From NCBI GenBank assembly GCA_036275915.1, contig DASUCV010000004.1, forward strand, positions 201,238 through 265,237: a stretch of 64,000 nucleotides of DNA, written 5' to 3'. Under the pieces are notes generated by a model. It made no database searches. It was given only the letters and a program-made list of their open reading frames with translations, and was not told the origin of the DNA. Both the position numbers and the translations under genes were made by a program. The DNA comes from Candidatus Polarisedimenticolaceae bacterium. Lineage in GTDB: Bacteria; Acidobacteriota; Polarisedimenticolia; Polarisedimenticolales; DASRJG01. Each line of letters begins with the position of its first letter. Positions within the stretch are counted from its first letter, which is position 1. Positions 13,945-40,915 of the stretch are shown in pieces.

Positions 13945-16900
13945 ATGGGCCCCTCGAGAGGTCTCGCGTCTCTCCTCGTCGTGGCTTCACTCGGTGCGGC
14001 AAGCTTCGCCGCGCTCTCGCCGGCAACGGACGATCGCGTCGCCGCGCGGCGCGCGGTCGAGCAGGTCTACTGGAATCACCGGCTGTGGCCCGATGACAAT
14101 CCGCAGGCCAAGCCGATGTTCGATCAGGTCGTTCCGGACTCGGCCGTCCGTGCGCGTGTCGAGGAGACGTGGCGCAAGGCCGCCGCCCTCGAGGTTCTCA
14201 GCGGCCGGCCGGTCACCCCCGCGATGCTTCAGGTCGAGCTCGACCGCATGGCGCGATCGACGCGAGCGCCGCTCGTCCTTCGCGAGATCTTCGACGCCTT
14301 GGGAAACGATCCGGCCCGGATCGTCGACGCCGTAGTGCGTCCCGCGCTGACCGAGCGTCTCCTGCGCGAGGCCTACGGCGACGGGTTCGACGCATGGTGG
14401 AACGACGTGCGGATGACCTTCGCCGCGGCGCCTTCTCCTCTGTCCTCGGCGGAATTCGTCCTCCCGACGATCGGTGGCGACGCGTGTACGCCTCTTGCGT
14501 GGGAGCCGACGTGCTGCGCCGATGGTCCGCCTGACGGCGCGACGGGCGCGCAGGCGGTATGGACGGGCTCGGAGATGATCGTCTGGGGCGGGGCGAGCGC
14601 GGCGGTGAATGCGCCGCTCGGCAAGCGATACGACCCGGCAACGGACACGTGGACCGCGATGGCGGTCGCCAACGAGCCGAGCGCGCGTATCCAGCACACC
14701 GCCGTCTGGACGGGGAGCGAGATGATCGTGTGGGGCGGGGGTGCCCCCGACGGAAGCGCGGCGCTCGGTACCGGCGGACGGTACAACCCGTCCACCGACA
14801 CGTGGGCCTCGACCTCGACCGCAGGAAGCGCGCCTTCGCCGCGCGGGTTGCACACCGCAGTGTGGACCGGGACCCGCATGATCGTTTGGGGAGGCGGTGA
14901 AGGCTCGGTCGATCTGCGCACGGGAGCGCGGTACGACCCGGCGACCGATAGCTGGGCCGCGACTTCCGTTGCGGGCCAAGCGCCCGACGCTCGACATGCG
15001 CACACCGCGGTGTGGACCGGATCACGGATGATCGTGTGGGGTGGAAATAGCAGTTCGGTCGGCCTGCTCGCCACGGGTGCCCTGTACGACCCCGCGGCCG
15101 ATACATGGAGTGCGACCAAGCCGCAGGGAGCGCCGGGGGCGCGATACGCTCACACCGCAGTGTGGACCGGGACCGTGATGATCGTCTGGGGCGGCCTGGA
15201 TAGCCTGGGAAGCGGCATCAACTCGGGCGGTCGCTACGACCCCGCGCAGAACAAGTGGACCGCGACGTCGACGGGAGCGGGCGTGCCGACCGGGCGGTTC
15301 TCGCACACGGCGGTGTGGACGGGAACGCGGATGCTGATCTGGGGTGGCAACGACAATGGGCCCGCTCACCAGCTCGGGGACGGGGCCCGGTACGACCCGG
15401 CTTCGGATACCTGGACTTCCATGTCGCTCGCGGGAGCGCCGGCGGCCCGCAGGTCCCACGTCGGCGTCTGGACCGGGACGCGGCTCGTCGTGTGGGGAGG
15501 CGAGACGGGGTTCAGCTCCGTCGAGCGCCTCGACAGCGGAGGACGGTACGACCCGGTGGCGGACACGTGGCTCCCGACGCGCACCAATCCTTCCGATCCG
15601 AAGCGAACGTCCCATACGGCGACCTGGACCGGGGCCGAGCTGATCGTCTTCGGGGGGATCCGGAGCTTCACCACCTCCCCTGCTCAGGTCGCGGATCCCC
15701 GGCGTTATGACCCGGCGACCGACACCTGGTCGATGACCGCGTCGACGAACGTTCCGTCGATACGGAGCGGACACATTGCGGTGTGGACCGGATCCGAAGT
15801 CATCGTCTGGGGCGGCACGAACGGCACGGACCTCGGCGACGGCGGGCGCTACGACCCGGCGGCGGATACCTGGACGCCGATTCCCGCCGCCGGCGGACCG
15901 TCGCCGCGCAGCGGCCACACCGCCGTTTGGACCGGAGCGCGGATGGTGATCTGGGGCGGCGGAGCGAGCACGAACACCGGGGCGCTCTACGATCCCGGAA
16001 GCGGGAGCTGGTCGACGACCTCGGTGGGGGCGAATGTGCCCAGCGGGCGTTCCGGGCATTCGGCCGTCTGGACGGGCCACGAGATGGTCGTCTGGGGCGG
16101 AGGCACGGCGAACACCGGTGGGCGTTACATCCCGGCGCAGGATGCATGGCTTCCGACTTCCACCGCCGGCGCGCCGTCTGGACGTCAGTATCACACCGCG
16201 GTCTGGACCGGATCGAAGATGATCATCTGGGGCGGCCTCGTAGGTCCCGGCAACACGAGCACCGGTGGCGCGTACGACCCGTTCAACGATGCCTGGACGC
16301 CGACCTCGCTCGCGAGCGGTGTCCCCACGGGCCGCTCCAACCACGCGGCCGCGTGGACCGGAACCGAGATGGTGGTCTGGGGCGGCAACTCGTCGGGAAC
16401 GATGCTGGGCGACGGAGGGCGTTACGACCCCGCGACCGACTCTTGGACCCCGATCGGCGCCGGCGCGACGTCGCCCTCGCCGCGCCGCGGACACTCGGCG
16501 AGCTGGATCGGCACCGAAGTGCTCGTCTGGGGCGGCGACGACGGAAACGAGTTCTTCAACACGGGCGCGGGACTCTGCCTCGACTCCTGCGCCTCGCCCG
16601 GTTTCTGGTATCCCGACGTCGACGGCGACGGGTTCGGTGCGATCGGCGTCACGGTGCAGGCCTGCAACGCGCCGGCCGGCTACGTGATGACGAGCGGCGA
16701 CTGCGATGATCGGCGCCCCGAGATCCATCCGGGCGCCGCCGAGATCTGCAACGCGCTGGACGACAACTGCGACGGCACGGTGGACGAAGGCTTTCCGGTC
16801 GCAGGATCGCCCGGACTCCTCGTGAACCACGCCGGGGACTCGGCGCTCCTGTCATGGAGCCCCGCCGGTGGCGTGGCCTTCGACGTCGAGGATGGGGTCA

Positions 16901-17136
16901 TCGAGTATCTCAAGTCGTTCGGGACGTTCACCTACTCGTGCCAGCTCGGAGTCGTGTCGAATTACGCGGGGACCTCGGTCACCGATCCACGTGTCAACGG
17001 CGTCGGCCAAACGCTCTACTACCTCGTCCGCGGTCATAGCTGCAGCGGCGCCATCGGGAGCTGGAGCAGCGGCGCGCCGTCCGAGCTGGCCGGACGCGAT
17101 TCCGAGCTGTCCGTCCCGCACGGGACGTGTCCCTGA
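13945..17136 (+). CDS. Secreted Kelch-repeat paralog E: signal peptide, conserved N-domain, 14 Kelch-like blades, one MopE-like Cys motif, C-terminal ...CP module
   Basis: AGGGGGAGGA RBS before ATG 13945. MGPSRGLASLLVVASLGAASFA signal. EQVYWNHRLWPDDNP N-domain. 14 occurrences of the (H)TAVWTGxxMIVWGG blade signature. YPDVDGDGFG...[25 protein letters not shown]. Ends PHGTCP. The first 69 codons of ORF 13738.. overlap the tRNA and were rejected. Confidence 0.9.
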   Translation: MGPSRGLASLLVVASLGAASFAALSPATDDRVAARRAVEQVYWNHRLWPDDNPQAKPMFDQVVPDSAVRARVEETWRKAAALEVLSGRPVTPAMLQVELDRMARSTRAPLVLREIFDALGNDPARIVDAVVRPALTERLLREAYGDGFDAWWNDVRMTFAAAPSPLSSAEFVLPTIGGDACTPLAWEPTCCADGPPDGATGAQAVWTGSEMIVWGGASAAVNAPLGKRYDPATDTWTAMAVANEPSARIQHTAVWTGSEMIVWGGGAPDGSAALGTGGRYNPSTDTWASTSTAGSAPSPRGLHTAVWTGTRMIVWGGGEGSVDLRTGARYDPATDSWAATSVAGQAPDARHAHTAVWTGSRMIVWGGNSSSVGLLATGALYDPAADTWSATKPQGAPGARYAHTAVWTGTVMIVWGGLDSLGSGINSGGRYDPAQNKWTATSTGAGVPTGRFSHTAVWTGTRMLIWGGNDNGPAHQLGDGARYDPASDTWTSMSLAGAPAARRSHVGVWTGTRLVVWGGETGFSSVERLDSGGRYDPVADTWLPTRTNPSDPKRTSHTATWTGAELIVFGGIRSFTTSPAQVADPRRYDPATDTWSMTASTNVPSIRSGHIAVWTGSEVIVWGGTNGTDLGDGGRYDPAADTWTPIPAAGGPSPRSGHTAVWTGARMVIWGGGASTNTGALYDPGSGSWSTTSVGANVPSGRSGHSAVWTGHEMVVWGGGTANTGGRYIPAQDAWLPTSTAGAPSGRQYHTAVWTGSKMIIWGGLVGPGNTSTGGAYDPFNDAWTPTSLASGVPTGRSNHAAAWTGTEMVVWGGNSSGTMLGDGGRYDPATDSWTPIGAGATSPSPRRGHSASWIGTEVLVWGGDDGNEFFNTGAGLCLDSCASPGFWYPDVDGDGFGAIGVTVQACNAPAGYVMTSGDCDDRRPEIHPGAAEICNALDDNCDGTVDEGFPVAGSPGLLVNHAGDSALLSWSPAGGVAFDVEDGVIEYLKSFGTFTYSCQLGVVSNYAGTSVTDPRVNGVGQTLYYLVRGHSCSGAIGSWSSGAPSELAGRDSELSVPHGTCP

Positions 17137-17154
17137 GGGTGGCGCAGGGACACG
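17126..17154. terminator. 10-bp inverted repeat (CGTGTCCCTG / CAGGGACACG, 9-nt loop) spanning the stop codon of paralog E
   Basis: Read directly from the sequence. The left arm is the Cys-Pro-stop codons of gene E. The right arm is the reverse-complemented Cys-Pro end of a relic paralog. There is no U-tract, so a terminator role is inferred only. Confidence 0.35.
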
Positions 17155-17197
17155 GACTCGAATTCGGCCTCGGCGCCCCCGCGCTGTGAACGCGTCG
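17145..17197 (-). pseudogene. Relic of the 3' end of a minus-strand Kelch/TSP3 paralog
   Basis: CAGGGACACGGACTCGAATTCGGCCTCGGCGCCCCCGCGCTGT matches the 3' ends of genes A-D (TTAGGGACACGGGTTCGCGTTCGGCCTCGGCGTCCCCGCGCTGT). It would encode ...SAGAPRPNSSPCP but has no stop codon and no upstream body. Confidence 0.45.
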
Positions 17198-17239
17198 TCG
17201 TCAGTCCTCGCCGAGAAACTCGGTCGCTTCCCGCGATTC

Positions 17240-17314
17240 TGGTGAGCCGTGCTGGATTTGAACCAGCGACCCTCAGCTTAAAAGGCTGGTGCTCTACCCC
17301 TGAGCTAACGGCCC
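17240..17314 (-). tRNA. tRNA-Lys(UUU): tRNA-Lys (anticodon UUU), CCA encoded
   Basis: The reverse complement reads GGGCCGTTAGCTCAGGGGTAGAGCACCAGCCTTTTAAGCTGAGGGTCGCTGGTTCAAATCCAGCACGGCTCACCA. It differs from the 13739 copy only at position 5 and at anticodon position 34. Confidence 0.9.
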
Positions 17315-17354
17315 ACGCAATGTGCGCTCAGGGTAGCACCGCGACGACAGACCC

Positions 17355-17861
17355 TCACGACCCCGAGCGCCACGCGATCGTTCCATCGAGCGTGCAGGTC
17401 TCGGTTCCGGAGCCGTCGGTCATCGTGAAGCCCTTCAGGGTGAGACGATCGGAGGTGGAATCCGAGCGGAACGTCGCCGGCCCGCACGCCTTCGGCGTTC
17501 CGACGCCGCACACCGTGTTGCCGTCCACGACCTCATCGAAGTTCGGCGAGTAATGCCACCACGAATGGTCGACCCACAGCACGGCGTGGCTCGAGTGGTC
17601 GATCACGACGATCACGTCGTGAACCGTCTGCCCGACGGCCTGGCTCATGTACAGCTCGTCCCTCGTCGCGTCGACCACGCTGAGATCGGCGTAACCGTCG
17701 AGCTGCCCGTCGCCGCTCGACGGCTGCGATGCCGAGACCGTCAGCATGTCAGGGGTAGGGCTCGTATCCATAAGTTGGTTGGCGCCCACGCACCCGGCCA
17801 GGACGAGGAGCCCCGCTCCTAGAGACACCTTGGTCAGGACTCGTCGTATCTGAGGCGTCAT
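17355..17861 (-). CDS. Lipoprotein, hypothetical (paralog 1)
   Basis: Lipobox GLLVLAGC. Ends ...GTETCTLDGTIAWRSGS. Shares DHS-H and CTLDG..AWR motifs with the 18057 gene. Confidence 0.75.
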   Translation of the reverse strand: MTPQIRRVLTKVSLGAGLLVLAGCVGANQLMDTSPTPDMLTVSASQPSSGDGQLDGYADLSVVDATRDELYMSQAVGQTVHDVIVVIDHSSHAVLWVDHSWWHYSPNFDEVVDGNTVCGVGTPKACGPATFRSDSTSDRLTLKGFTMTDGSGTETCTLDGTIAWRSGS

Positions 17862-17987
17862 GGCAGAAATGTACGAAGGCTATTGCGCCGAGAGCGCTGC
17901 CAATTCACGAGCTCACAGCGCGTCAAACCCATCGCCCGAGACGACAATGCCGAAAGGCCGTCTAGGGGCGCGATCGCCAGGTCTCGC

Positions 17988-18056
17988 TCACGATCCCGTC
18001 GCCCACTCGATCGTCCCATCGAGTGTCGAGGTCTGGAAGTTTTGCTCGCGTGCCGT
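17988..18056 (-). pseudogene. Post-stop duplicate of the lipoprotein C-terminal tail (relic of a third paralog, or a readthrough extension)
   Basis: In frame directly after the TGA of gene 18057..18581: TAREQNFQTSTLDGTIEWATGS-stop. Compare the tail of gene 17355, TETCTLDGTIAWRSGS-stop. Nucleotide similarity to 17355-17400 is visible. Confidence 0.4.
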
Positions 18057-18581: not shown

Positions 18582-18652
18582 GGATGACCCCCCACTCTCC
18601 CAAGATCATCGCATAGTCCGAGGTGCGGGGGCTCACCCAATCCGGGGAGACA

Positions 18653-21598
18653 TCACGGACAGGTGCTGCTCGCCCGCTCCGTGTCCGGCACCCCGTTGAT
18701 CTCGGAGTAGCCGTAGGTCCCCGCTCCGGCGCACGCGTTCGCGCCGCGCACGAGGTACCAGTAGCCGGCGCCGTCGAGCGGGACGTCGGAGTCGGTGGCG
18801 GAGGTGCCGGCGATGGCGCCGGAGCAGAGCTCGTCGTCGCCGCCGGGGCCGACGGGGAGCGAAGCAAGGTCGCCGCGGAGGAGGTCCGATGACGTCGCGC
18901 CGAGGGCTGCGTTCCAGCTCACGAGCGCGTCGGTGCCGTTGCGATCGACACGCAGGCCGGTGTCGACCTCCGCGGGGGCGGTGACCGGGGTTCCTGCGCA
19001 GACGCCGGCGGCGCAGGCGTCGCCGGAGGTGCAGGCGTTCTGGTCGTCGCAACCGGTGCCGTCGGGGAGCTCGGTCGCGTTGCAGTCGCCGGTTCCGCTG
19101 TCGCACGCGTTGACGTGGCAGCCGTCGACCGGGGCGCAGACGACGGGGACGTGGGCGCAGCCCGTCGCCGAGCTGCACGAGTCGGTCGTGCACGGATCGT
19201 TGTCGGAGCAATCGAGCGGGGTGTGCGTGCAGCCGAGGACCTGGTCGAAGCGGTCGGTCGTGCAGGCATCCTGGTCGTTGCAGAACGTTCCCATCTTGAA
19301 TGCGCCGCGGCCGTGCGTGAACGAGACGATCGTACCGGTCGAGGACTGTGCGACGAGATCGAAGACGGCGGCGTTGGGGTGGCCGCCCATGAACACTTCC
19401 CAGCTCTGTCCCGCGTCGAGGCTGCGGAAGATGCCGACGTCGGAGCCGGCGTAGAGGACGCTGGGGTTATCGGGATCGATGAGGACGGCGTTCATCGGCA
19501 CGTTCGGGATGCCGGCGTCGATCGCCGTCCACGTCGGCGTCGTGTCGAGCGCGTTCGTCGTGCGGTAGAGGTGGGGGCCCGAGAAGCCGCCGGTCGCGAT
19601 GACGACCGTCGCAGGGCTGGTCGGATCGACGGCGATGTCGGCGACGTTGATCGAGAAGTTGAGGTTGCCGTTCGCAAATCGCCAATCGCTTCCCGAATCC
19701 GTGGTCAAGAGGATGTGCCCGGCGCTGTCGACGGCGTAGTAGGTGTCGCACTGCGCGTCGGCGTCGGCCCAGGCGAGGGCGACCATGCTCTGGAACTCGG
19801 GGCTGTTCGACGTCCAATTGGCGGTCGCGTCGTCGGTGCGCCAGACGTTGTTCGATCCGGCGATGAGGACCTGCGAGTTGCTCGGGCACATGACGTAAGG
19901 CGCGACGAACGGCGCGGCGTTGGTGTTCGCGTCGGCGAGACCGTTCGTTCCGGAGAACCAGCTCGCGCCGCCGTTCTGCGTCTTCAGGATGTTGAGGTGC
20001 TGCGTCGAGCCGTACCACACGCTGCCCGGGCTCGCGGAGTCGATCGCCGCGTATCCGCCGTCTCCGGTGACCTCGAGGCTCCAGCTCGCGGTGCCGTCGA
20101 ACCGCTGCACGCCGTTGTCCTGCGCGCCGGCGAGCGCGCGCGTACCGTCCTGCGGGTCGAGCGCGCCGCCCGGGTAGAACTGCGCCAGCTGGAGGCCGGG
20201 GTTGCGGCTCGTCCAGAGGCCGCCGTTGTTCGTCGTCGTGAAGACGCCGCCGTCGTTCCCGAGCCAGACCTCCGATCCCTTGAACGCGACCGCGTGCTGG
20301 TCGGCGTGCACCGACTGCGGGCAGACGGCGCCCCACGTCGACCCGCCGTCCCCCGAGCGCCAGATCCCCGTGCCGCCGAGCCAGACGCCGTGATCGGGCG
20401 CGACGCCGAGCACGAGGTCGTACCAGCACTGCCCCGACGTGCCGCCCGTGTACGTGCACGGATCGGAGAAGGTCCAGTACTGGCAGGCGCCGCTCGGCTT
20501 CGTCACCACGGACCACGACGTCCCCGAGCTGGTCGATTTGTACGTGTCGAGGTGCCGGCCGTTCGACGCGTTCTCGAACGTGGCGTAAACGGTCGTGTTC
20601 GTCACCGGATCGACGGCGACGGCGACGCGGCCGACCGACGACGGAAGGCCGCCCGCGAGCTTCGTCCAGGTCGTGCCGCCGTTCGTCGTCTTCCAGACGC
20701 CGCTGTGGTTCGCGCCGGCGTAGATGATGTTCGGGTTCGTCGGGTCGGCCGCGAGGTCGTGGATCGCCGCGTTCGAGCCGATCTGCGTCGAACCGAGCAC
20801 ATGGAGCCAGGTCGCGCCGGCGTCGGTCGAGCGCCAGACGCCGTAGGTCCCGGCCGGGCCGGCGAAGCAGAGGAAGCCGCCGATGCCGCCGCCGTTCGCC
20901 GCCCAGAGGATGTTCGGGTTCCCCGGATGGACGAGGATCTTGGTGACGCTGGTATTCGCGAACGGCGTCGCGCCGAGGAGGGTCCACGTGGCGCCGCCGT
21001 CGGTCGAGCGGAGGATGCCCGCGCCGAAGTACGAGTCGCACGACTGGTTCCCCTCGCCGGTCCCGGCGTAGATCACGTTGCCGTTCGACGGCGCGATCGC
21101 GATCGAGCCGATCGCGAGCGAGGCCTGCGTGTCGGTCATGGGCGTCCAGGTCGCGCCGTGGTCGGTCGTCTTCCAGACGCCGCCCTGCGCGCCCCCGACG
21201 TAGGCGATGTTCGCGTTCGTGGGGTTGATCGCGATCGCGGTGACCCGCCCGCTGAAGGCGTACGAGCCGTCGAGCTCGGGCGCCGGCCCGATCGGCGCCC
21301 ACCCGTCTCCCGCGATGCGCTGGAGCGGCCCCGGCCGGAGAAGGCCCTTCGCGATGTTCGCCTTCAGCTCCGCGATCGCCTTGTTGCGCCCGTCGGCGCG
21401 AAGGAACCCGTCGGGGCCCGCGCGCCTCGCGGCGAACCACTGGCTGCGCTCGAAGAGGAGGTCCGGCCCTTCTTTCTCGCCGATCTCGGCCTTCTTGTGG
21501 TCTTCGCCGGCATCCGGATCGGCGGCGGGCGCCGCGGCGCGAGCGGCGGCCGCCAGGAGCAGAGTCGTCGCAATCGCACCGAGCGCCTTGAGCTTCAT
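18653..21598 (-). CDS. Secreted BNR/Asp-box (sortilin/VPS10-like, GH74-like) repeat protein with a Cys-rich region and C-terminal ...CP module
   Basis: Signal MKLKALGAIATTLLLAAAARA. Repeated Asp-box-like motifs (TTDHGATW, STDGGATW, STDAGATW, TTNGGTTW, SGDGGSTW, SLDAGQSW). CxDxxxCTxDxC-type Cys-rich segment. The tail reads ALVSWNAALGA...GYWYLVRGANACAGAGTYGY...ASSTCP. Confidence 0.85.
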   Translation of the reverse strand: MKLKALGAIATTLLLAAAARAAAPAADPDAGEDHKKAEIGEKEGPDLLFERSQWFAARRAGPDGFLRADGRNKAIAELKANIAKGLLRPGPLQRIAGDGWAPIGPAPELDGSYAFSGRVTAIAINPTNANIAYVGGAQGGVWKTTDHGATWTPMTDTQASLAIGSIAIAPSNGNVIYAGTGEGNQSCDSYFGAGILRSTDGGATWTLLGATPFANTSVTKILVHPGNPNILWAANGGGIGGFLCFAGPAGTYGVWRSTDAGATWLHVLGSTQIGSNAAIHDLAADPTNPNIIYAGANHSGVWKTTNGGTTWTKLAGGLPSSVGRVAVAVDPVTNTTVYATFENASNGRHLDTYKSTSSGTSWSVVTKPSGACQYWTFSDPCTYTGGTSGQCWYDLVLGVAPDHGVWLGGTGIWRSGDGGSTWGAVCPQSVHADQHAVAFKGSEVWLGNDGGVFTTTNNGGLWTSRNPGLQLAQFYPGGALDPQDGTRALAGAQDNGVQRFDGTASWSLEVTGDGGYAAIDSASPGSVWYGSTQHLNILKTQNGGASWFSGTNGLADANTNAAPFVAPYVMCPSNSQVLIAGSNNVWRTDDATANWTSNSPEFQSMVALAWADADAQCDTYYAVDSAGHILLTTDSGSDWRFANGNLNFSINVADIAVDPTSPATVVIATGGFSGPHLYRTTNALDTTPTWTAIDAGIPNVPMNAVLIDPDNPSVLYAGSDVGIFRSLDAGQSWEVFMGGHPNAAVFDLVAQSSTGTIVSFTHGRGAFKMGTFCNDQDACTTDRFDQVLGCTHTPLDCSDNDPCTTDSCSSATGCAHVPVVCAPVDGCHVNACDSGTGDCNATELPDGTGCDDQNACTSGDACAAGVCAGTPVTAPAEVDTGLRVDRNGTDALVSWNAALGATSSDLLRGDLASLPVGPGGDDELCSGAIAGTSATDSDVPLDGAGYWYLVRGANACAGAGTYGYSEINGVPDTERASSTCP

Positions 21599-21661
21599 CG
21601 CCTCCCCCGCGGAATGGACGGGAAGATGATACGAGGCGTCGATCCGATATGCCCGCGCCGT

Positions 21662-22522
21662 CTAGGGACAGGGGATCGCATTCTCGCGAGGCGTCCCCGC
21701 GCTGTCGGCTCCCAGGTCCCCCTCGATTCCCGCGGTGATCCCCGCGACGAGGAAGAACTGCGCCTGGCCCGCCTCTGGCACGGCCTCGTCCCCGAGGTAC
21801 GGGTTGAACACGCCGCACACCTGCTCCGCGAGCGCGTTCGATCCGGGGGTCTGCGCGTACGCCCCGGTCGCCTTCAAGATCGAGAGGTCGCCTTCGTAGA
21901 CGCTCCACCGCGACGACCCGATCTCGTCCTGCCACTCGATGTAGTCCTTGTCGTCGGTGCCGAGGATGTAGATGACGCCGTCGTCGAGATCGCACACGTC
22001 GCCTTCGCCGTCGGCGTCGATGTCGGACTGCGTCGGGTTCGCGACGAAGACGCAGTTGTCGCAGGCGTCACCCCAGCCGTCGCCGTCGAAGTCGTCCTGC
22101 GCCGGATTGAACGTCTCGGGACAGTCGTCGCAGGCGTCCCCGACGTGGTCGCCGTCCGTGTCGGCCTGATCCGGGTTGAACGCCGACCGGCAGTTGTCGC
22201 ACGCGTTGTGGACGCCGTCGCCGTCGGAGTCGACGCCGTCGGCGTCTTCGTCGACGAGGCCGTTGCAGTCGTTGTCGAGGCCGTCGCAGATCTCCGCGGC
22301 CCCCGGATGAACCGACGCGTGCGCGTCGTCGCAGTCGCTCGCGTCCGCGACCCAGCCGCGAGGCACCGGGCCGTGGCACACGGTGATCGAGATCGCGGGA
22401 TCGCCGAACCCGTCACCGTCCGCGTCCCGATGGAAGACGTTGCAGGCGCCGTGCGTACTCCCCGCGACCGCTGCGTGAAGCAGCACGGCCGCAAGCGAGG
22501 CACCGCACGCCACCGGGATCAT
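21662..22522 (-). CDS. Small secreted tail-only paralog: signal peptide, MopE-like motif, about 4 thrombospondin type-3 repeats, C-terminal ...CP module
   Basis: GGAGA RBS before ATG 22522 ([21 protein letters not shown]). [67 protein letters not shown] and [12 protein letters not shown]. Ends ...[31 protein letters not shown]. Confidence 0.85.
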
Positions 22523-22665
22523 CGTCTCCCCTGCCTTCGAGAACAGGTACCGCAGGGGTGCCCGAAGCACCACGACTTTCTTTTACGTAGGCCGTCTTCA
22601 GGGGTTCAGGATGGACTTCGAGCGAAGGTTCGGGGTAGCGTTCGACGCTTCAAGAGGAGTCGGTC

Positions 22666-24738: not shown

Positions 24739-24742
24739 TCGC

Positions 24743-25906
24743 TTAGGGACACGGGTTCGCGTTCGGCCTCGGCGTCCCCGCGCTGTCCGTCCCCAGCGAT
24801 CCCTCGACACCGCCGGTCACGCCGGTGACGAGGCTGAACTCCACCTGTGCGCTCCCCGGCACGATCGTGTCGAGCGAGAACGGGTCAGTGACGCCGCACG
24901 ACTTCGACGCGAGCGGGTTCGACCCCGGCGCTTGCGTGTACGTGCCCGACAAGCGGAGCACCGAGAGATCGCCGGTGTACACGTTGAACGCCGACGGTCC
25001 GGACTCCTGCTGCCACTCGACGTAGCTCTTGTCGTCGGTGCCGAAGATGTAGATCAAACCGTCGTTGAGGTCGCAGACGTCGCCCTCGCCGTCCTGGTCG
25101 AAATCCGATTGCGAGGGATTGAAATCGAACGCGCAGTTGTCGCAGTTGTCCCCGACCTTGTCTCCATCGGTGTCGATCTGCGAGGGGTTCGACGCGTGCG
25201 GGCAGTTATCGCAAGCATCACCGATCGCATCGCCATCGGCATCGGCCTGTGACGGGTTCGACACAGTCGGGCAATTGTCACAGACGTTCCCCACGTGGTC
25301 GCCGTCGGTGTCGGTCTGGGTCGGATTCGCGACCGTCGGGCAGTTGTCGCAGGCGTTGTGAATGCCGTCGCCGTCGGTGTCGACGCCGAGCGCGTTGTCA
25401 TCGACGAGACCGTTGCAGTCATCGTCGATGCCGTTGCACACCTCCACCGCGCCGGGATGGATCGCCGGATTCGCGTCGTTGCAGTCGTTCGCGCAGATCC
25501 GATAGCCGTCTCCGTCGGCGTCGGCTTCGTTGGCCGGCACCGCGGGCCAATTCGGGTCGGAGCAGTTGTTGTTCTTGCCGTCGCAGAGCTGCGGAGCGCC
25601 CGGATAGATCGTGGGGTCGTTGTCGTTACAGTCGCCCTGGCAGATCCGGAAGGCATCGCCGTCCGCGTTGGCTTCGTTCGCGGGCACGGTCGGCCAGCTC
25701 GGGTCGAAGCAGTTGTTGTTCTTCCCGTCGCAGAGCTGCGGGGCGCCGGGGTAGACCGTCGGGTCGTTGTCGTTGCAATCGGTACCGGCGGCGACGTACC
25801 CCGCCGGGGGGATTCCGGCGCAGCCGGTCGCCGGCTTCGTCGCATCGCCGTAACCGTCGCCATCCACATCCCGATAGAACGTCGCGACGGTGGCGCAGGC
25901 ACAATA
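24743..25906 (-). repeat. Conserved 3' module of paralog A (MopE-like, TSP3 and C-terminal domain coding), copy 1 of 4
   Basis: Long runs of identical nucleotides with 28833-, 32689- and 36701-, for example GGCCTCGGCGTCCCCGCGCTGT and GGTGACGAGGCTGAACTCCACCTG. The inner boundary is approximate. Confidence 0.7.
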
Positions 25907-28822: not shown

Positions 28823-28832
28823 CACCCACCCC

Positions 28833-30150
28833 CTACGGACACGGGTTCGTATTCGCCCTCGGCGTCCCCGCGCTGTCCGTCCCCAGCGATCCCTCGACAC
28901 CGCCGGTGACGCCGGTGACGAGACTGAACTCAACTTGGCTACTGCCCGGCACGATCGTATCGAGCGAGAACGGGTCGGTGACTTGGCAGGCCCTCGACGC
29001 CAGCGGATTCGATCCCGGCGCCTGTGTGTATGTGCCGGACAAGCGGAGCACGGAGAGATCGCCGGTGTAGACGTTGAACGCGGTCGGACCCGTCTCCTGC
29101 TGCCACTCGACGTAGCTCTTGTCGTCGGTGCCGAAGATGTAGATCAGCCCGTCGTTGACGTCGCAGGCGTCCCCTTCGCCGTCGTGGTCGAAGTCGGATT
29201 GCGTCGGGTTGTAGTCGACCGGGCAGTTGTCGCACTGGTCGCCGATCTTGTCGCCGTCGCCATCGGCCTGAGCCGCGTTTGGTGCCAACGGGCAGTTGTC
29301 ACAGGCGTCGCCCAGCCCATCGCCGTCGGAGTCGAGCTGGCTCGCGTTCGCGACCGTGACGCAGTTGTCGCAAGCGTTCCCCACGTGGTCGCCATCACTG
29401 TCGGTCTGCGTCGCGTTCGAGACCGTCGGGCAGTTGTCGCAGGCGTTGTGGATGCCGTCGCCGTCGGTGTCGACACCTTGCGCATTCTCGTCGACTTGTC
29501 CGTTGCAGTTGTCGTCGATCCCGTTGCAGATCTCCGCCGCACCGGGGTGAACGGCCGGGTTCGCGTCGTTGCAATCGTTGGCGCAGATGCGGTAGCCGTC
29601 GCCGTCCGCATCGGCTTCGTTCGCGGGGACCGTCGGCCAGGACGGATCGTTGCAGTTGTTGTTCTTGCCGTCGCAGAGCTGCGGCGCGTTCGGGTACACG
29701 GTTGCGTCGCCGTCGTTGCAATCGCCCTGGCAGACGCGGAATCCGTCGTGGTCGGCGTCCAGCTCGCTTGGCGGAAGGGCCGGCCAGCCCGGCGACGAGC
29801 AGTTGTTGTTCAGCCCGTCGCAGATCTCCGGAGCCCCGGGGTAGACCTTGTTGTTGTTGTCGTTGCAGTCGCCGCCGCACGTGGTGAAGCCGTCATTGTC
29901 GACGTCGAACCCCTCGTCGATCTTTCCGTCGCAATTGTCGTCGATGCCGTTGCAGACCTCCGTCGCGTTCGGGTGGACCGCAGGATCGGCGTCGTTGCAG
30001 TCCCCGCGACTGCGAGAATAACCAGCCGGCTTGTCGCAGGCCTGGACCGTATCGCTCGCCACGCCGTACCCGTCCCCGTCGACGTCGCGGTACCACGTCG
30101 CCGGGGTGCACGGGGTCGTGCAGTAGCGCGCCCCGTTCGAATTCAGCGGC
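28833..30150 (-). repeat. Conserved 3' module of paralog B, copy 2 of 4
   Basis: Same as copy 1. Contains one additional MopE-like unit that is shared with D. The inner boundary is approximate. Confidence 0.65.
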
Positions 30151-32669: not shown

Positions 32670-32688
32670 CGTCGGCCTCCAGCGACAC

Positions 32689-33855
32689 TCAAGGACACGG
32701 ATTCGCGTTCGGCCTCGGCGTCCCCGCGCTGTTCGTTCCCAGCGATCCCTCGATACCGCCAGTCACGCCGGTGACGAGGCTGAACTCCACCTGTGCGCTC
32801 CCCGGCACGATCGTGTCGAGCGAGAACGGGTCGGTGACCTGGCAGGCTCTCGACGCGAGCGGATTCGACCCCGGCGCCTGCGTGTACGTTCCGCTCAGTC
32901 TCAGGACCGAGAGATCGCCGGTGTACACGTTGAACGCCGACGGCCCCGTCTCCTGCTGCCACTCGACGTACGTCTTGTCGTCGGTGCCGAAGATGTAGAT
33001 CAGGCCGTCGTTGACGTCGCAGACGTCGCCTTCGCCGTCGTGGTCGAAGTCGGATTGCGTCGGGTTGTAGTCGGAGAGGCAGTTGTCGCAGGCGTCCCCG
33101 ACCCTGTCGGCATCCGTATCGAGCTGCGAGACGTTCGGCGCCAACGGACAGTTGTCGCACGCGTCGCCGATCGTGTCGGCATCGGTGTCGGTTTGGCTCG
33201 GGTTGGCGATCGACGGGCAGTTGTCGCAGGCGTTCCCCAGGTGATCGCCGTCCGTGTCGGTCTGGGTCGCGTTCGAGACCGTCGGGCAGTTGTCGCAGGC
33301 GTTGTGAATACCGTCGCCGTCGGTATCGACGCCGAGCGCGTCCTCGTCGACCTGACCGTTGCAGTTGTCGTCAATGCCGTTGCAGATCTCGGCGGCGCCG
33401 GGATGGATGGCAGGATTCGAATCGTTGCAGTCGTTCTGGCAGATGCGGTAGCCGTCGCCGTCGGCGTCGGCTTCGTTCGCCGGCACCGCCGGCCATGACG
33501 GATCCGAGCAGTTGTTGTTCTTCCCGTCGCAGAGCTGCGGGGCGCCCGGGTACACCGTTGCGTCGTTGTCGTTGCAATCGCCCTGGCAGATACGGAAGGC
33601 GTCACCGTCGGCGTTGGCTTCGTTCGCCGGCACTGTCGGCCAGCTCGGATCCGAGCAATTGTTGTTCTTGCCGTCGCAGAGCTGCGGCGCCCCCGGGTAG
33701 ACCGTCGGGTCGTTGTCGTTGCAGTCGCCTGCCGTCGCCGCGTACCCGGCCGGCGGGATTCCGGTACAACCCATCGCGGTCGTCGAGGCGACGCCGAACC
33801 CGTCGCCGTCGGCGTCGCGGTAGAACGTCGCCGGCGTCGTGCAGGCGCAGTACCG
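32689..33855 (-). repeat. Conserved 3' module of paralog C, copy 3 of 4
   Basis: Aligns by eye with 24743-25906 over more than 1 kb, with most positions identical. The inner boundary is approximate. Confidence 0.7.
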
Positions 33856-36690: not shown

Positions 36691-36700
36691 CGTCGACCTC

Positions 36701-38020
36701 CTACGGGCAAGGATTCGCGTTCGGCCTCGGCGTCCCCGCGCTGTTCGTTCCCAGCGACCCCTCGACGCCTCCGGTCACTCCCGTGACGAGGCTGAACTCC
36801 ACCTGCCCGCTCCCCGGCACGATCGTGTCGAGCGAGAACTGGTCGGTGACCTGGCAGGCCCTCGACGCGAGCGGATTCGACCCCGGCGCCTGCGTGTACG
36901 TGCCGGACAAGCGGAGCACGGAGAGATCGCCGGTGTAGACGTTGAACGCCGACGGTCCCGTCTCCTGCTGCCACTCGACGTACGTCTTGTCGTCAGTGCC
37001 GAAGATGTAGATCAGGCCGTCGTTGAGGTCGCAGGCGTCGCCCTCGCCGTCGTGGTCGAAGTCGGATTGCGTGGGATTGGGTTCGGCGATGCAGTTGTCG
37101 CAGTTGTCTCCGACTTTGTCGCCGTCGGTGTCGACTTGCGACGGGTTTGGCGCGAGCGGGCAGTTGTCGCACGCGTCGCCGATCGCGTCGCCGTCGACAT
37201 CTGACTGCGAGGCGTTCGAGGTGTTCGGGCAATTGTCACAGGCGTTGCCGACATGATCCCCATCGCTGTCCGTCTGGGTCGGGTTCGAGATCGTCGGACA
37301 GTTGTCGCAGGCGTTGTGCACGCCGTCCCCATCCGTGTCGACTCCCTGCGCGTTCTCGTCGACCTGCCCGTTGCAGTTGTCGTCGATGCCGTTGCAGATC
37401 TCCGCGGCACCAGGATGGACCGCGGGGTTCGAATCATTGCAATCGTTCTGGCAGATCCGATACCCGTCGCCGTCGGCGTCGGCCTCGTTCGCCGGCACCG
37501 TGGGCCACGACGGATCGGAGCAGTTGTTGTTCTTGCCATCGCAGAGCTGCGGCGCGCCCGGATAGACGGTCGCGTCGTTGTCGTTGCAATCGCCCTGACA
37601 GATGCGGAACGCGTCGCCGTCGGCGTTGGCTTCGTTGGCGGGCACCGTGGGCCACGACGGGTCCGAGCAGTCGTTATTCTTGCCGTCGCAGAGCTGCGGC
37701 GCGCCCGGATAGACGGTCGGATCGTTGTCGTTGCAATCTCCCTGGCACGTCGTGAACGCATCGCCATCGACATTGAACCCTTCGTCGATGCGGCCGTCGC
37801 AGTTGTCGTCGATGCCGTTGCAAACCTCGACGGCGCTCGGCTTGATCGCCGGGTTGGCATCGTTGCAGTCGCCGCGCGACGCGACGTAACCGGCGGGCTT
37901 GTCGCACGACGTCGTCGTGACGTTGTCGTCGCCGTAGCCGTCGCCGTCGGCATCGCGGTACCAGGTCGAGAGCGCGCATGTCCCGAGGCAGTAGCGGCCA
38001 CCTCCCGATGTCTGCGGGCT
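36701..38020 (-). repeat. Conserved 3' module of paralog D, copy 4 of 4
   Basis: Same as copy 2. The inner boundary is approximate. Confidence 0.65.
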
Positions 38021-40915
38021 ACCGCCCCAGACGATCATCTCGGTGCCCGCGACGACACCGGCGTGACCCGACCGCACGTCGGGAACGAGCCCCGTGACGG
38101 ATGTCGGCTGCCAGGTGTCGGACGCCAGGTTGTAACGGCCTCCGCTGTTGTAGAGATAGCCCGCCATCTGGAAGTTCGCGCCGCCCCAGACGATCATCTC
38201 GGTGCCGTTCCAGAGCGCCGTGTGGGAGATACGCGCACCCGGAGCGCTCGCGGTGCTCGTCGTGCCGAACGTGTCGGTCGCCGGGTTGTAGCGCAGCCCC
38301 GTGTTGAGTTGGCTCCCACCAGCTGAACCGCCCCAGATGATCATCTCGGTTCCAGTCCAGACCGCGCTGGCGTCGGTGCGAGCCGCGGGTGCGCCGAAGC
38401 CGGAGTACGTCGGCGTCCACGAATCGGTCGCGAGATCGTACCGGCCGCCGGTATTCGTCGGATTGTTGTTGGCCTGGCCACCCCACACGACGAGCTTCGA
38501 TCCCGTCCACGTGAACGCCATCCCCGAGCGCTGGGAAGGCGCTCCCGTCGTCGACACGGGGGACCATGTATTCGACGAAGGATCGTAGATCGAGCCCGTG
38601 TTCAGGAAGTTGCTCCCGCCGGCGTCACCGCCCCAGATGATCAGACGCGTCCCCGTCCAGACACCTGCATGCGACGAGCGCGCTTGCGGAATGTTCGCCG
38701 TGGGGATCCACGCATCCGCGACCGGGTCATACCTTCCCGTCGAGGTTCCTCCGTTGAACCCGCAGCTGACGATCATCGCTTTTCCGGTCCAGACCGCCGT
38801 GTGGCCGGACCTCGCTGCCGGCGCGTTGGTCGTCGCCGTCAACGTCCACGCATCGAGCGCCGGGCTGTATCGGCCGCCCGTGTTGAGATAGGCCGTCTGG
38901 CCGGTGTTCGTCTGCTCGCCGCCCCACACGATCATCTCGGCGCCGGTCCACACCGACCCGGCCTTGTTGGCCGGCGGCGGACGCAGACTTCCTTCCGAGA
39001 TCGGGGTCCACGTATCCGTCGCCGGCGAGTACCTCGCCCCGCTGCGCAGCACCTGCGAGAAATAAGAGGTGCGACCACCCCAGACGATCATCTCCGAGCC
39101 GGTCCAGACGGTCGAGTGCTTCCAGCGGCCGGTCGGCACTCCGGGCCCGGTGCTCGTCGGCGCCCACGTATTCGTCGACGGGTTGTAGCGTCCACCGGTC
39201 GTGAAGCCGGGTCCGCTGGTTTCGCTCGTCGTCCCGCCCCAGACGATCATCTCCGTTCCCGTCCAGACGCCCTGCGGCCAGTCGCGCTTCGGCGGGACGT
39301 TCGCGCCGGTGCTCGTCGGGGCCCACGTGTCGGTCGAGGGATCGTAAAGACCGCCGGTGTTGTCCTGCTGTCCTCCCCACACGATCATCCGGCTCCCGGT
39401 CCAGACGGCGACGTGATTGCTGCGTGCGGTCGGCGTCGTCGCGTCGAATCTCGTCGGCGTCCACGAGTCGGTCGTAGGGTTGTACCTGCCGCCGGTGGCG
39501 CCCGCGCTGCCGCCCCAGACGATCATCTCTGTTCCGGTCCAGACGGCGCTGTGACCGACGCGACCGGTCGGAACGTTCGTCTGCGAGAACGGAATCCAAG
39601 CGTTGAGCGGGAGGCTGTAGCGCGAGCCGAGGTCGGACGTGCCGCCCGACGCGGGGTTCCCGCCCCAGATGATCATCTGCGTTCCGGTCCAGACTGCGGT
39701 GTGGCCGTAGCTGCCGCGGCTCGCGGGGGCGTTGGGTGGGATCGGCGTCCAGGTATCGGTCGCGGGGTTGTAGCGGGATCCGTCGTTGAGCGCCCCGATC
39801 CAATTCGTGTACCCCCCGTAGACGAGCATCTCGCTGCCGGTCCACAGCGCGGTGTGCGAGCGGCGGGCGACGGGCGCCCCCACCATCGTCGTCGCCGACC
39901 AGGTGTCGGTCGCCGGGTTGTAGCGATAGCCGGCCTGCGAAAGGCTGCCGCCCTCGTTCGGCTGGTCGGAGCCGCCCCAGACGATCATCTCCGATCCGGT
40001 CCAGACGCCCGTGTGGTAGTTTCGCGGATCGGGACCGTCGCTCCCCAAGCGCTTCCAGGTGTCGTTCGTGCAGGCGGCGTCCGGAAGGGCCGGTACTGCG
40101 ATCGCGTCGGCGGCGAGCGCCGAGCTCGGCTCGACCGTCGCCGCAGTGCTCTTCCACCATGCATCGAACGCCGGCTTGTCCCAGCGGACGGTCGCCGCCG
40201 TAATGGCGTCGGCGTCGGACGAAACGATCCGCGTGAGGGTGTAGGCCGCGTCGTCCTCTTGAAGCAGACCGTCGTTCTTCTCGAGCCAGGCACGACGTTC
40301 CTCGAACTCCGGCGGCGCAAGAACGACGGCGTCACCTGCAGCTTGGGCTCCGCGCCGCCATGTCGTCTCTCGGAAGCCCGGTCCCGAGCGATGCATCGCG
40401 GGGATGGACGTCAGGACCGCGGCGCCGCGCTCCGCGCTCTCCCTCGTACTGCTTTGAATTGCGCCGTCCGAGGCGAAGAATTGATGGACGAGCCGGTCCG
40501 CGAGAATTGGACGCACGAGCGCCTCGGCGATCAGTCTTGGATCGTTGTTGAGGGCGTCGAGCAGCTCGCGCAGGACGTCCGGCGCTTGCGTGCCGGCCGT
40601 CATGCGCTCGAGCTCGGCCTGAATCTCGGGCGCGGTGAGCGGATGATTCCAGCGCGTGGCCAAGACTGCCGATTGCCGCAGCGCGAGATCGACCTTCCCT
40701 CGAAGCACCTCGGGCGTCACGACCGTGTCGAAGGCGGGCCGAGGCTCGGTGCTCGCCCAAATCCTGTGCCGCCAGTACACCTCCTCGATCGACTTCTGGG
40801 CCGCGATGCGCTCTTCGAGGGTCAGCGCTCGAGGCGTCGCGTGGGCTGCACCTGTCATGAAGAAGGAAAGGGAAACCGCGACCACCGCGGCGCGAAGCCG
40901 GCGTTGACGGCCCAT
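36701..40915 (-). CDS. Giant secreted Kelch/MopE/TSP3 paralog D (1404 aa)
   Basis: Signal [40 protein letters not shown]. 14 blades. A ...[26 protein letters not shown]... unit as in B. Ends [11 protein letters not shown]. Lies 10 nt upstream of C. Confidence 0.9.

What the first reader, a model, noticed from the sequence alone, without database searches (positions are those of the whole stretch)
13945..40915. Seven secreted proteins with different heads share one C-terminal roughly 100-aa module that ends exactly in Cys-Pro-stop
The C-termini are HGTCP (paralog E), SSTCP (BNR/sortilin-like protein), AIPCP (tail-only protein), NANPCP (A, C, D) and NTNPCP (B). A common core lies upstream of each: W ... 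(F/Y).V..G.L..L ... C ... D..(V/L)P..G....(F/Y)(F/Y)LV.G ... G..G..G..S.G..R.....CP. The module has no hydrophobic helix or basic tail. It therefore does not look like a PEP-CTERM, MYXO-CTERM, LPXTG or GlyGly-CTERM sorting signal. It looks like a small folded beta-domain, possibly with a disulfide between the internal Cys and the penultimate Cys. Different N-terminal heads (14-blade Kelch, BNR propeller, or none) on the same tail within 27 kb suggests a common anchoring, export or recognition function.
Basis: partly seen in the sequence, partly recalled or inferred. Interest (0 to 1): 0.75.

Follow-up and report, generated by a model that had tools for sequence, protein, structure and literature searches.

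The report
Disulfide-capped FN3 end domain ending Cys-Pro
Seven exported proteins in this acidobacterial genome share a real C-terminal domain of about 100 residues, but it is an uncatalogued variant of the common fibronectin type III fold whose Cys-Pro ending belongs to the domain, not a new kind of sorting signal.

Summary
Exactly seven ORFs in the window end in Cys-Pro-stop, and all carry a homologous module of about 105 aa. The stop codons are mixed (TGA, TAG, TAA), so they are true stops.

The module is a divergent fibronectin type III (FN3) domain. The profile of two of its three subtypes matches the C. thermocellum Fn3-like module 3mpc at E=8e-9. AlphaFold models have pLDDT 86-91, and all 50 top Foldseek hits for the BNR-type tail are FN3 domains.

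No Pfam or NCBIfam model covers it, yet it defines a large family: 3,390 clusters at 50% identity. The genomes found are nearly all Acidobacteriota. The window comes from a Candidatus Polarisedimenticolaceae MAG.

Of 327 copies, 304 (93%) end exactly at the protein C-terminus. Genuine internal or N-terminal copies also exist, including three in one protein, and they are followed by TSP3 repeats, cohesin, Lcl_C or an SGL propeller. Most still end in Cys or Cys-Pro.

The module has no TM helix or basic tail. It matches no T9SS or tripartite-signal model and has no conserved neighbouring enzyme.

Best reading: a disulfide-stapled FN3 end-cap on Ca-binding stalks, probably a non-cleaved docking tip. 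A dedicated sorting role is not excluded but is disfavoured.

The parts
16819..17136 (+). FN3-CP module of paralog E (type III, 3 Cys, ends HGTCP, stop TGA). The gene is 13945-17136.
   Evidence: Pfam finds Kelch repeats and a MopE motif upstream.
18653..18979 (-). FN3-CP module of the BNR/sortilin-like protein (type II, 3 Cys, ends SSTCP, stop TGA). The gene is 18653-21598.
   Evidence: AF2 model m821ca2c6b0fc has pLDDT 85.6. All top 50 Foldseek hits are FN3 domains. Dicty_CTDC Cys-rich repeats lie upstream.
21662..21979 (-). FN3-CP module of the tail-only protein (type I, 2 Cys, ends AIPCP, stop TAG). The gene is 21662-22522, or 22573 by the PGAP start. Its architecture is signal peptide + MopE + TSP3 repeats + module.
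   Evidence: It is identical to P0171 / HEX4823300.1, named 'MopE-related protein'.
24743..25060 (-). FN3-CP module of paralog A (type I, ends NANPCP, stop TAA). The gene is 24743-28822.
   Evidence: AF2 model m0a58ebd88e37 has pLDDT 91.4. Foldseek gives only weak hits, and they are FN3 domains.
28833..29150 (-). FN3-CP module of paralog B (type I, ends NTNPCP, stop TAG). The gene is 28833-32669.
32689..33006 (-). FN3-CP module of paralog C (type I, ends NANPCP, stop TGA). The gene is 32689-36690.
36701..37018 (-). FN3-CP module of paralog D (type I, ends NANPCP, stop TAG). The gene is 36701-40915.
25061..25735 (-). Stalk of paralog A, about 225 aa, made of MopE-like Cys motifs and TSP type 3 Ca-binding repeats immediately upstream of the module. 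Equivalent stalks occur in B, C, D and the tail-only protein. Stalk and module behave as one conserved 3' cassette.
   Evidence: Pfam finds PF11617 and PF02412. The stalk is 76-87% identical among A-D, against 41-58% for the heads. Among 81 family representatives, MopE occurs in 48 and TSP_3 in 31.

Best explanation
The shared tail is a divergent fibronectin type III beta-sandwich. It forms the last module of a recurrent C-terminal 'stalk and cap' cassette in Sec-exported proteins of Polarisedimenticolia-like Acidobacteriota. The cassette is Cys-rich MopE or Dicty-type motifs, then Ca-binding TSP3 repeats, then the FN3 module.

The Cys-Pro ending is the domain's own structural terminus. After the last strand, a Gly-rich segment of about 20 residues (G..G..G..S.G..R.....CP) runs back across the pole of the sandwich that lies farthest from the stalk. 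There the penultimate Cys is pinned by a disulfide to the conserved internal Cys at the start of strand C'. Pro caps the chain. The protein normally stops there because nothing follows. Where other modules do follow, the boundary Cys, usually as Cys-Pro, is mostly retained.

In type I, the most conserved non-core motifs are [11 protein letters not shown] and [15 protein letters not shown]. Both sit at that distal pole. Paralogs with diverged heads keep nearly identical tails under purifying selection. The most likely role is therefore a non-cleaved, protease-resistant docking tip that binds a common partner, either a cell-envelope or matrix component or another protein. The N-terminal heads (Kelch, BNR and others) would then be presented on a rigid stalk.

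Shown: the homology, the FN3 fold class, the terminal bias, the internal copies, the absence of signal-type features and the selection pattern. Inferred: the disulfide pairing, the location of the conserved loops at the distal pole and the docking function.
For: - **Sequence homology to FN3.** The type II/III profile matches 3mpc_A (Fn3-like module of C. thermocellum CtXyl5A) at E=8e-9 and 5g56 at 1.5e-7. The alignment covers the strand B Trp and the strand F YYxV motif.
- **Predicted fold.** The BNR-tail model has pLDDT 85.6 and seven strands. All 50 top Foldseek PDB hits are FN3 domains, the best with TM 0.6-0.7 and rmsd about 2 A. The type I model has pLDDT 91.4 and hits only FN3 domains, but weakly.
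- **One family.** Types I and II/III are homologous (hhalign 98%, E 2.5e-13).
- **Family size and ending.** There are 3,390 clusters at 50% identity with E<=1e-3. CP ends 114 of 120 and 131 of 145 sequences. 304 of 327 copies end exactly at the protein C-terminus.
- **Internal copies.** Most of them still end in C or CP and are followed by recognised domains.
- **Cysteines.** Both Cys are present in 283 of 331 aligned copies. Most apparent exceptions are type II/III rows, where the internal-Cys column is shifted in the alignment. P0218 has lost both together. The tail-only protein has an even Cys count, with the TSP3 Cys accounting for the rest.
- **Selection.** Among A-D the tail is 92-97% identical, the stalk 76-87% and the heads 41-58%. 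In the tail, 16-28 codons differ synonymously against 3-8 non-synonymously.
- **Diverse heads.** In 81 representatives they include Kelch, NHL, DUF5122, BNR, LamG, M64 peptidase, arylsulfotransferase and beta-helix.
- **No signal features.** There is no TM or basic tail, no sorting-signal, T9SS or other model hit, and no conserved neighbouring gene in 26 related loci.
Against: - The exactness of the ending is stronger than a merely structural end requires. 93% of copies stop right after CP, and very few have even 1-2 extra residues. This could reflect a need for a free C-terminus.
Both rest on FN3 topology and the DSSP strings.
- Types II and III have three Cys, so the pairing there is ambiguous.
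- A few type I sequences lack the internal Cys but keep the terminal one (P0047, P0196, P0106).
- Three divergent subtypes coexist in one genome. This fits a single common partner poorly.
- No binding partner, cellular localisation or expression data exist.
Confidence: 0.55

Rival explanations
1. The module is a dedicated C-terminal export or attachment domain, analogous to the beta-sandwich CTD of type IX secretion substrates. An as yet unknown acidobacterial machinery would recognise it. The penultimate Cys or the free Cys-Pro carboxyl end would serve as the recognition or attachment point, and the domain might then be removed.
For: - 93% of copies lie at the exact C-terminus.
- The module is attached to many unrelated heads, and head-less proteins also occur.
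- Several copies occur per genome and in tandem arrays.
- The tail is much more conserved than the heads among paralogs.
- Its size and beta-sandwich fold resemble those of T9SS CTDs.
Against: - Bona fide internal and N-terminal copies exist, including three in one protein.
- No T9SS CTD model (TIGR04183 or PF18962 type), or any other sorting model, matches even at E up to 10.
- No conserved neighbouring gene was found in 26 loci.
- The adjacent S9 peptidase recurs in only 1 of 26 loci.
- Three subtypes sharing 21-28% identity coexist in one genome.
- From general knowledge, not tested here: T9SS is not known in Acidobacteriota.
Confidence: 0.15
2. The module is a passive structural spacer or stability cap with no specific partner. 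Its terminal position and the shared CP-stop are simply inherited, because the whole 3' cassette (stalk + FN3 + stop codon) spreads by duplication and recombination. The stop cannot move upstream without losing the stapling Cys.
For: - FN3 modules commonly act as spacers. The nearest solved relative is the Fn3 module of the multi-modular CtXyl5A.
- The stalk and tail are inherited together.
- Tandem paralog arrays occur in several genomes.
- One-residue changes or extensions (CPP, CPR, CPH, CR, CQ, CT) are tolerated.
Against: - Long non-core loops are nearly invariant across genomes in type I (45 invariant columns in 8 sequences sharing 65-92% identity).
- Non-synonymous changes in the tail are far fewer than synonymous ones, while the heads diverge.
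- Both observations point to a functional surface, not a spacer. A spacer at the very end of a protein spaces nothing.
Confidence: 0.25
3. The shared ending is trivial: either a chance coincidence, or the result of Sec/UGA read-through or annotation artefacts among recent paralogs.
For: Five of the seven proteins are paralogs. Three of the seven stops are TGA.
Against: - The stops are mixed TGA, TAG and TAA, and the downstream frames hold no conserved continuation.
- HMM E-values are 1e-28 to 1e-53, and only these seven ORFs match.
- Thousands of homologs elsewhere have the same ending.
Confidence: 0.02

Closest known systems
Bacterial Fn3-like modules, e.g. the Fn3 module of Clostridium thermocellum CtXyl5A (PDB 3mpc, 5g56), and the FN3 superfamily in general
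   Same: The sequence is homologous over strands A-F (E=8e-9), including the strand B Trp and the strand F YYxV motif. The predicted fold is the same seven-strand sandwich (TM 0.6-0.7 to many FN3 structures). The module is one unit of multi-modular exported proteins.
   Different: Pfam fn3 (PF00041) does not detect it. It has a Gly-rich C-terminal extension that ends in an invariant Cys-Pro, together with a conserved internal Cys. Type I has a helix-plus-loop insertion ([11 protein letters not shown]) between strands C and C' and a degenerate G strand. It is strongly biased to the extreme C-terminus.
Type IX secretion C-terminal domains (CTD; TIGR04183/PF18962 type A, and type B)
   Same: It is a beta-sandwich of about 80-100 aa at the extreme C-terminus of diverse exported proteins, with many copies per genome.
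   Different: No model matches. Internal and N-terminal copies exist. The genomes found are almost all Acidobacteriota, where, from my own knowledge, T9SS is not known. There is no evidence of cleavage or of PorU/PorV-type partners.
[quoted passage not shown]
   Same: It has an invariant Cys near the C-terminus of surface or secreted proteins. CGP-CTERM also has Pro close to the Cys. The proteins share a TSP3-repeat context with the MYXO-CTERM protein MtsC (partial NF047638 hits through the TSP3 repeats only).
   Different: Those signals are short motifs followed by a transmembrane helix and an Arg cluster, and CPBP/Rce1-like intramembrane proteases process them. Here the chain ends one residue after the Cys, with no TM helix and no basic cluster, and the Cys lies inside a folded 100-aa domain.
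Thrombospondin signature domain (TSP type 3 repeats followed by a C-terminal beta-sandwich domain)
   Same: The architecture is analogous in type I: Ca-binding, disulfide-linked TSP3 repeats lead directly into a C-terminal beta-sandwich.
   Different: The C-terminal domain here is an FN3 of about 105 aa, not the L-lectin-like TSP_C domain of about 230 aa. Pfam TSP_C does not match. The resemblance is architectural only.

Membership tests
FN3 superfamily (fibronectin type III-like beta-sandwich) | Seven-strand Greek-key beta-sandwich fold | tested here: met
   AF2 models have pLDDT 91.4 and 85.6. For the BNR-type tail, all 50 top Foldseek hits are FN3 domains; the best have TM 0.6-0.7 and rmsd about 2 A. 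For type I only FN3 hits appear, and they are weak (TM 0.45-0.5, E>=0.03).
FN3 superfamily (fibronectin type III-like beta-sandwich) | Detectable sequence homology to an established FN3 domain (strand B Trp, strand F Tyr-corner motif) | tested here: met
   The type II/III profile matches 3mpc_A at E=8e-9 and 5g56_A at 1.5e-7, aligning LxW...Y.V.R...YYYVV. The type I-dominated profile matches only at E=0.015, but type I is linked to types II/III by hhalign at E 2.5e-13.
FN3 superfamily (fibronectin type III-like beta-sandwich) | Match to the Pfam fn3 model PF00041 | tested here: not met
   No Pfam hit at E up to 10 on any of the seven tails, and none on the module in 81 full-length representatives.
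T9SS C-terminal sorting domain | Match to CTD models (TIGR04183/PF18962, or the type B CTD) | tested here: not met
   No such hits in Pfam or NCBIfam at E up to 10 or on the full proteins. The only T9SS-named hit is a weak PorZ match (E 1.5e-4) at residues 87-146 in the N-terminal part of the BNR/sortilin-like protein.
T9SS C-terminal sorting domain | Obligately at the extreme C-terminus | tested here: not met
   304 of 327 copies are terminal, but 7 are followed by more than 30 residues, including folded domains.
T9SS C-terminal sorting domain | Co-occurrence with T9SS machinery (PorU/PorV/SprA etc.) in the same genome | not testable with these tools
   Only 64 kb of the 855-kb contig and flanks of +/-8 kb at related loci were available. 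None of the genes I annotated in the window is a T9SS component.
Tripartite C-terminal sorting signals (PEP-CTERM, MYXO-CTERM, GlyGly-CTERM, LPXTG, CGP-CTERM etc.) | [quoted passage not shown] | tested here: not met
   Maximum KD(15) in the last 60 aa is 0.4-1.4. There is one K/R in the last 15 aa. The chain ends one residue after the Cys. The family definition is taken from Haft 2023.
Tripartite C-terminal sorting signals (PEP-CTERM, MYXO-CTERM, GlyGly-CTERM, LPXTG, CGP-CTERM etc.) | Match to the NCBIfam/TIGRFAM sorting-domain HMMs | tested here: not met
   No such hits. The NF047638 (MtsC) hits cover only the TSP3 repeats.
Selenoprotein / UGA read-through | Conserved in-frame UGA with a conserved downstream continuation | tested here: not met
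   The stops are TGA x3, TAG x3 and TAA x1, and the downstream sequence is not conserved.
Thrombospondin C-terminal domain (TSP_C) | L-lectin-like domain of about 230 aa after the TSP3 repeats; Pfam TSP_C | tested here: not met
   The module is about 105 aa and FN3-like, and TSP_C does not match.

The most novel reading that the evidence does not exclude
The CP-terminated FN3 module is the recognition and attachment domain of an undescribed surface-display or secretion pathway in Acidobacteriota. It would be functionally analogous to the T9SS CTD or to sortase-type systems but mechanistically different. The exposed penultimate Cys, or the Cys-Pro carboxyl end at the distal tip, would be the point of covalent or high-affinity attachment to the envelope.
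Probability: 0.15. Interest if true: 0.75.

Novelty: new variant of a known kind. Interest (0 to 1): 0.35.

Why it matters
Acidobacteriota are abundant in soils and sediments but hard to culture, and how they display or release their many large extracellular proteins is poorly understood. This module marks a large, unannotated set of such proteins: about 3,400 clusters at 50% identity. PGAP currently labels them only 'hypothetical', 'MopE-related' or 'kelch repeat-containing'.

A family model would improve annotation and give a handle for finding the exported repertoire of these organisms. If the conserved distal tip proves to be a docking site, it would identify a common anchoring principle for diverse heads. 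If it is only a stabilising cap, it is an ordinary FN3 variant. In either case the claim of a new sorting signal should not be made on present evidence.

Tried and rejected
1. **Selenocysteine or read-through after CP.** Rejected, because the stop codons are mixed and nothing downstream is conserved.
2. **The signal-peptide-bearing S9 prolyl oligopeptidase (22666-24738) as a cognate processing enzyme.** It lies between the tail-only gene and paralog A. A similar gene lies near a module gene in only 1 of 26 related loci, at 33% identity. I treat it as coincidental.
3. **Conserved-neighbour search.** All-against-all BLAST of ORFs of at least 150 aa across 26 loci plus the window found no recurrent neighbour other than module proteins and their shadow ORFs.
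4. **Family libraries.** Pfam and NCBIfam scans of the tails at E up to 10 found nothing meaningful.
5. **Literature.** Searches for Polarisedimenticolia, MopE/TSP3/kelch and Cys-containing sorting signals found nothing about this module. Haft 2023 was used only for the definition of tripartite signals.
6. **The search for related loci with the mixed alignment A2.** It failed because no stretch was conserved enough. I re-ran it with a type I alignment, so the genome survey is biased towards type I.
7. **The search for homologous proteins.** It returned only short proteins or fragments of at most 192 aa. Full-length architectures came from the search of protein representatives, which lists only the best 150 of 3,390 hits. 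The terminal fraction among distant members is therefore unknown.
8. **Cys-Cys distance.** It could not be measured because model coordinates are not exposed.
9. **N-terminal domain of A-E.** It was checked against Pfam and PDB without result.

Full report
**1. The observation**

A six-frame scan of the window finds exactly seven ORFs of at least 80 aa whose translation ends in Cys-Pro:

| Gene | Coordinates | Strand | Ending |
|---|---|---|---|
| E | 13945-17136 | + | HGTCP |
| BNR/sortilin-like | 18653-21598 | - | SSTCP |
| tail-only | 21662-22522 | - | AIPCP |
| A | 24743-28822 | - | NANPCP |
| B | 28833-32669 | - | NTNPCP |
| C | 32689-36690 | - | NANPCP |
| D | 36701-40915 | - | NANPCP |

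D, C, B and A are separated by only 10-19 nt and form a tandem array. The stop codons are a mixture of TGA, TAG and TAA, and the sequence after them is not conserved. The proteins therefore really do end there, and a selenocysteine reading is excluded.

An HMM of the seven tails recovers these seven ORFs at E 1e-28 to 1e-53 and nothing else in the window. Every protein has a hydrophobic, signal-like N-terminus. None has a hydrophobic or basic C-terminal segment.

A-D tails are 92-97% identical to one another. The tail-only protein is 59% identical to them, and E and BNR are 21-28% identical. Because E and BNR are so divergent, I tested their homology independently of the training set:
- hhalign of a type I profile against a type II/III profile gives probability 98% and E 2.5e-13.
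- An HMM built without any type I sequence still finds the five type I tails.

The qualification is that A-E share the same head (an N-terminal helical domain plus 12-14 Kelch blades). The window therefore shows three independent head types, not seven.

**2. What the module is**

Neither Pfam (2025 copy) nor NCBIfam (release 20) has a model that touches the last 105 residues, even at E up to 10.

Sequence evidence places it in the FN3 superfamily. A profile of the type II/III modules matches the Fn3-like module of C. thermocellum CtXyl5A at E=8e-9 (3mpc) and 1.5e-7 (5g56). The alignment runs through the strand B Trp and the strand F 'YYYVV' motif.

Predicted structure agrees:
- The BNR-type tail gives a seven-strand sandwich with pLDDT 85.6. 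All 50 best PDB matches are FN3 domains; the best have TM 0.6-0.7 and rmsd about 2 A.
- The type I tail folds confidently (pLDDT 91.4, pTM 0.83). It is more derived, with a helix plus a long loop inserted after strand C and an irregular last strand. It matches FN3 structures only weakly.

The module is therefore an FN3 domain with a Gly-rich C-terminal extension that ends in an invariant Cys-Pro. Three subtypes are present in this window:
- Type I: ...PR.N.NPCP, two Cys.
- Type II: ...R.S[ST]TCP, three Cys.
- Type III: ...HGTCP, three Cys.

**3. Distribution**

The window is part of an 855-kb contig of a Candidatus Polarisedimenticolaceae MAG. PGAP calls the three proteins I looked up 'kelch repeat-containing', 'hypothetical' and 'MopE-related'.

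An exhaustive HMMER search of 1.84 billion representative proteins finds 3,390 clusters at E<=1e-3, 944 at E<=1e-10 and 143 at E<=1e-30.

A scan of GTDB representative genomes used type I patterns and is therefore biased towards type I. It finds 26 loci:
- Nearly all are in Acidobacteriota MAGs.
- One is in the isolate genome Acidobacteria bacterium Mor1.
- One is in a Verrucomicrobiia MAG.
- Some genomes hold several loci, and some loci hold tandem arrays.

Among 81 full-length representatives the heads are diverse: Kelch propellers (26), NHL, DUF5122, BNR, FG-GAP, LamG, M64 peptidase, arylsulfotransferase and beta-helix. The module is usually preceded by MopE motifs (48 of 81) and TSP3 repeats (31 of 81). 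Stalk plus module behaves as a cassette.

**4. Terminal signal or domain end?**

The terminal bias is strong:
- 114 of 120 and 131 of 145 database sequences end in CP.
- Of 327 module copies that reach the end of the HMM, 304 stop exactly at the protein C-terminus. Nine have 1-2 extra residues, seven have 3-30, and seven are followed by more than 30 residues.

The internal cases are real domain architectures:

| Protein | Arrangement |
|---|---|
| P0166 | three copies between TSP3 repeats, ending ...DAC, ...DGCP and ...DSCP, each followed by D.D.DG |
| P0137 | one internal copy (...ESCP, then TSP3 repeats) and one terminal copy |
| ORF in L026 | signal peptide, then the module ending ...NPCPRGCG, then an SGL beta-propeller |
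| ORF in L008 | module followed by an Lcl_C domain |
| P0233 | module followed by a cohesin domain |

The twist is that the Cys, usually as Cys-Pro, is retained in most internal copies. CP marks the domain boundary; it does not require a free carboxyl end.

No hydrophobic helix or basic tail is present. The Cys-containing sorting signals described by Haft (MYXO-, JDVT-, Synerg- and CGP-CTERM) are all tripartite. No T9SS CTD model matches. No gene recurs next to module genes in 26 loci. The secreted S9 prolyl oligopeptidase that sits between two of the genes here recurs in only one other locus.

**5. How it most likely works**

*Shown:* the fold class, the family, the terminal bias, the internal copies and the selection pattern.

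Among A-D the heads are 41-58% identical, the stalks 76-87% and the tails 92-97%. In the tail, 16-28 codons differ synonymously against only 3-8 non-synonymously, and third positions differ at 18-28%. The tail is therefore held by purifying selection, not merely by recent gene conversion.

In type I, long non-strand segments ([11 protein letters not shown] and [15 protein letters not shown]) are nearly invariant across genomes.

*Inferred from FN3 topology and the DSSP strings:*
- The insertion after strand C and the post-G extension both lie at the pole opposite the domain's N-terminus, which is the far tip of the stalked molecule.
- The internal Cys sits at the start of strand C', on that same pole. 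The extension can cross the pole and be stapled there by a disulfide from the penultimate Cys. Pro is then the only unrestrained residue.

Support for this pairing:
- Both Cys are present in 283 of 331 aligned copies. Most apparent exceptions are alignment shifts in types II/III.
- P0218 has lost both Cys together.
- The tail-only protein has an even Cys count.

In types II/III the third Cys lies at the end of strand F, at the N-terminal pole. It may link to the preceding Cys-rich repeat. BNR has 23+3 Cys and E has 9+3.

The model has three steps:
1. Sec export.
2. Oxidative folding.
3. A Ca-stiffened stalk carrying a protease-resistant FN3 tip that docks non-covalently to a common partner and presents the variable N-terminal head.

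My confidence is high (about 0.85) for 'FN3 domain with a structural Cys-Pro end'. It is modest (about 0.4) for the docking role. I rate the combined statement at 0.55.

**6. Rivals**

- **Dedicated export or attachment domain (T9SS-CTD-like), 0.15.** The terminal bias, head diversity and tail conservation favour it. The internal copies, the lack of any model match or conserved partner gene, and three coexisting divergent subtypes count against it.
- **Passive spacer or cap inherited as a cassette with its stop codon, 0.25.** It explains the shared stop. It fits poorly with the invariant loops and the strong purifying selection.
- **Chance or artefact.** Excluded.

**7. Comparison and novelty**

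The module is a new, uncatalogued subfamily of a very well known fold. It works most like other FN3 or Ig-type terminal modules of bacterial surface proteins.

It is not a member of the T9SS CTD family, of the tripartite sorting signals or of TSP_C. In each case a defining feature was tested and not met.

I rate the novelty as a new variant of a known kind and the interest at 0.35. It is worth a family model and a proteomic check of the C-terminus, but present evidence does not support a new sorting mechanism.

Noticed in passing
window 22666-24738 (+): An S9 prolyl oligopeptidase with a signal peptide lies between the tail-only gene and paralog A, next to proteins ending ...NPCP. A similar gene lies near a module gene in only 1 of 26 related loci (L019, 33% identity), so the position is probably coincidental.
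   Followed up: partly
window 13739-13813 (-) and 17240-17314 (-): Paralog E is bracketed by two tRNA-Lys genes (anticodons CTT and TTT). E also carries a different tail subtype from A-D. I did not examine whether this reflects an insertion or rearrangement.
   Followed up: no
window: N-terminal ~140 aa of A-E (e.g. residues ~25-170 of 24743-28822 (-)): A conserved helical N-terminal domain (R.LTL.ERV.AQ.AIE.VYW.HRIWP...VRP.L..R) has no Pfam or PDB sequence match. It also heads other family members (P0128, P0134, P0141, P0147). This is a second uncharacterised domain in the same proteins.
   Followed up: partly
window 11643-13382 (-): A secreted PQQ-like propeller protein ends ...VHLTWTGGTAPYTLRR...TSYDEPGLDDGKTYYYDLH-stop. 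By eye this looks like an FN3 domain that stops right after strand F, without the Cys-Pro extension. The module HMMs do not detect it.
   Followed up: no
window 24743-40915 (-): In the tandem array D-C-B-A (10-19 nt spacers), identity rises from head (41-58%) to stalk (76-87%) to tail (92-97%). Third-codon-position divergence is also somewhat lower in the tail (0.18-0.28) than in the stalk (0.28-0.37). Some gene conversion on top of purifying selection is therefore possible.
   Followed up: partly
window 17355-17861 (-): A small ORF (168 aa) has a lipoprotein-like N-terminus (LLVLAGC) and no Pfam match. It lies between tRNA-Lys and the BNR gene.
   Followed up: no
L018 6603-8330 and 8406-10130 (Verrucomicrobiia MAG DASRAU010000037.1): This is the only non-acidobacterial genome hit. 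It has two tandem module-bearing genes, ending NPCP and NPCR. The cause could be horizontal transfer or mis-binning.
   Followed up: no
P0233 (328 aa, metagenome protein): A type I module, ending ...NPCT, is followed by a cohesin-like domain (PF00963, E 2.7e-5). This hints that some members take part in cohesin-type protein-protein assemblies.
   Followed up: no
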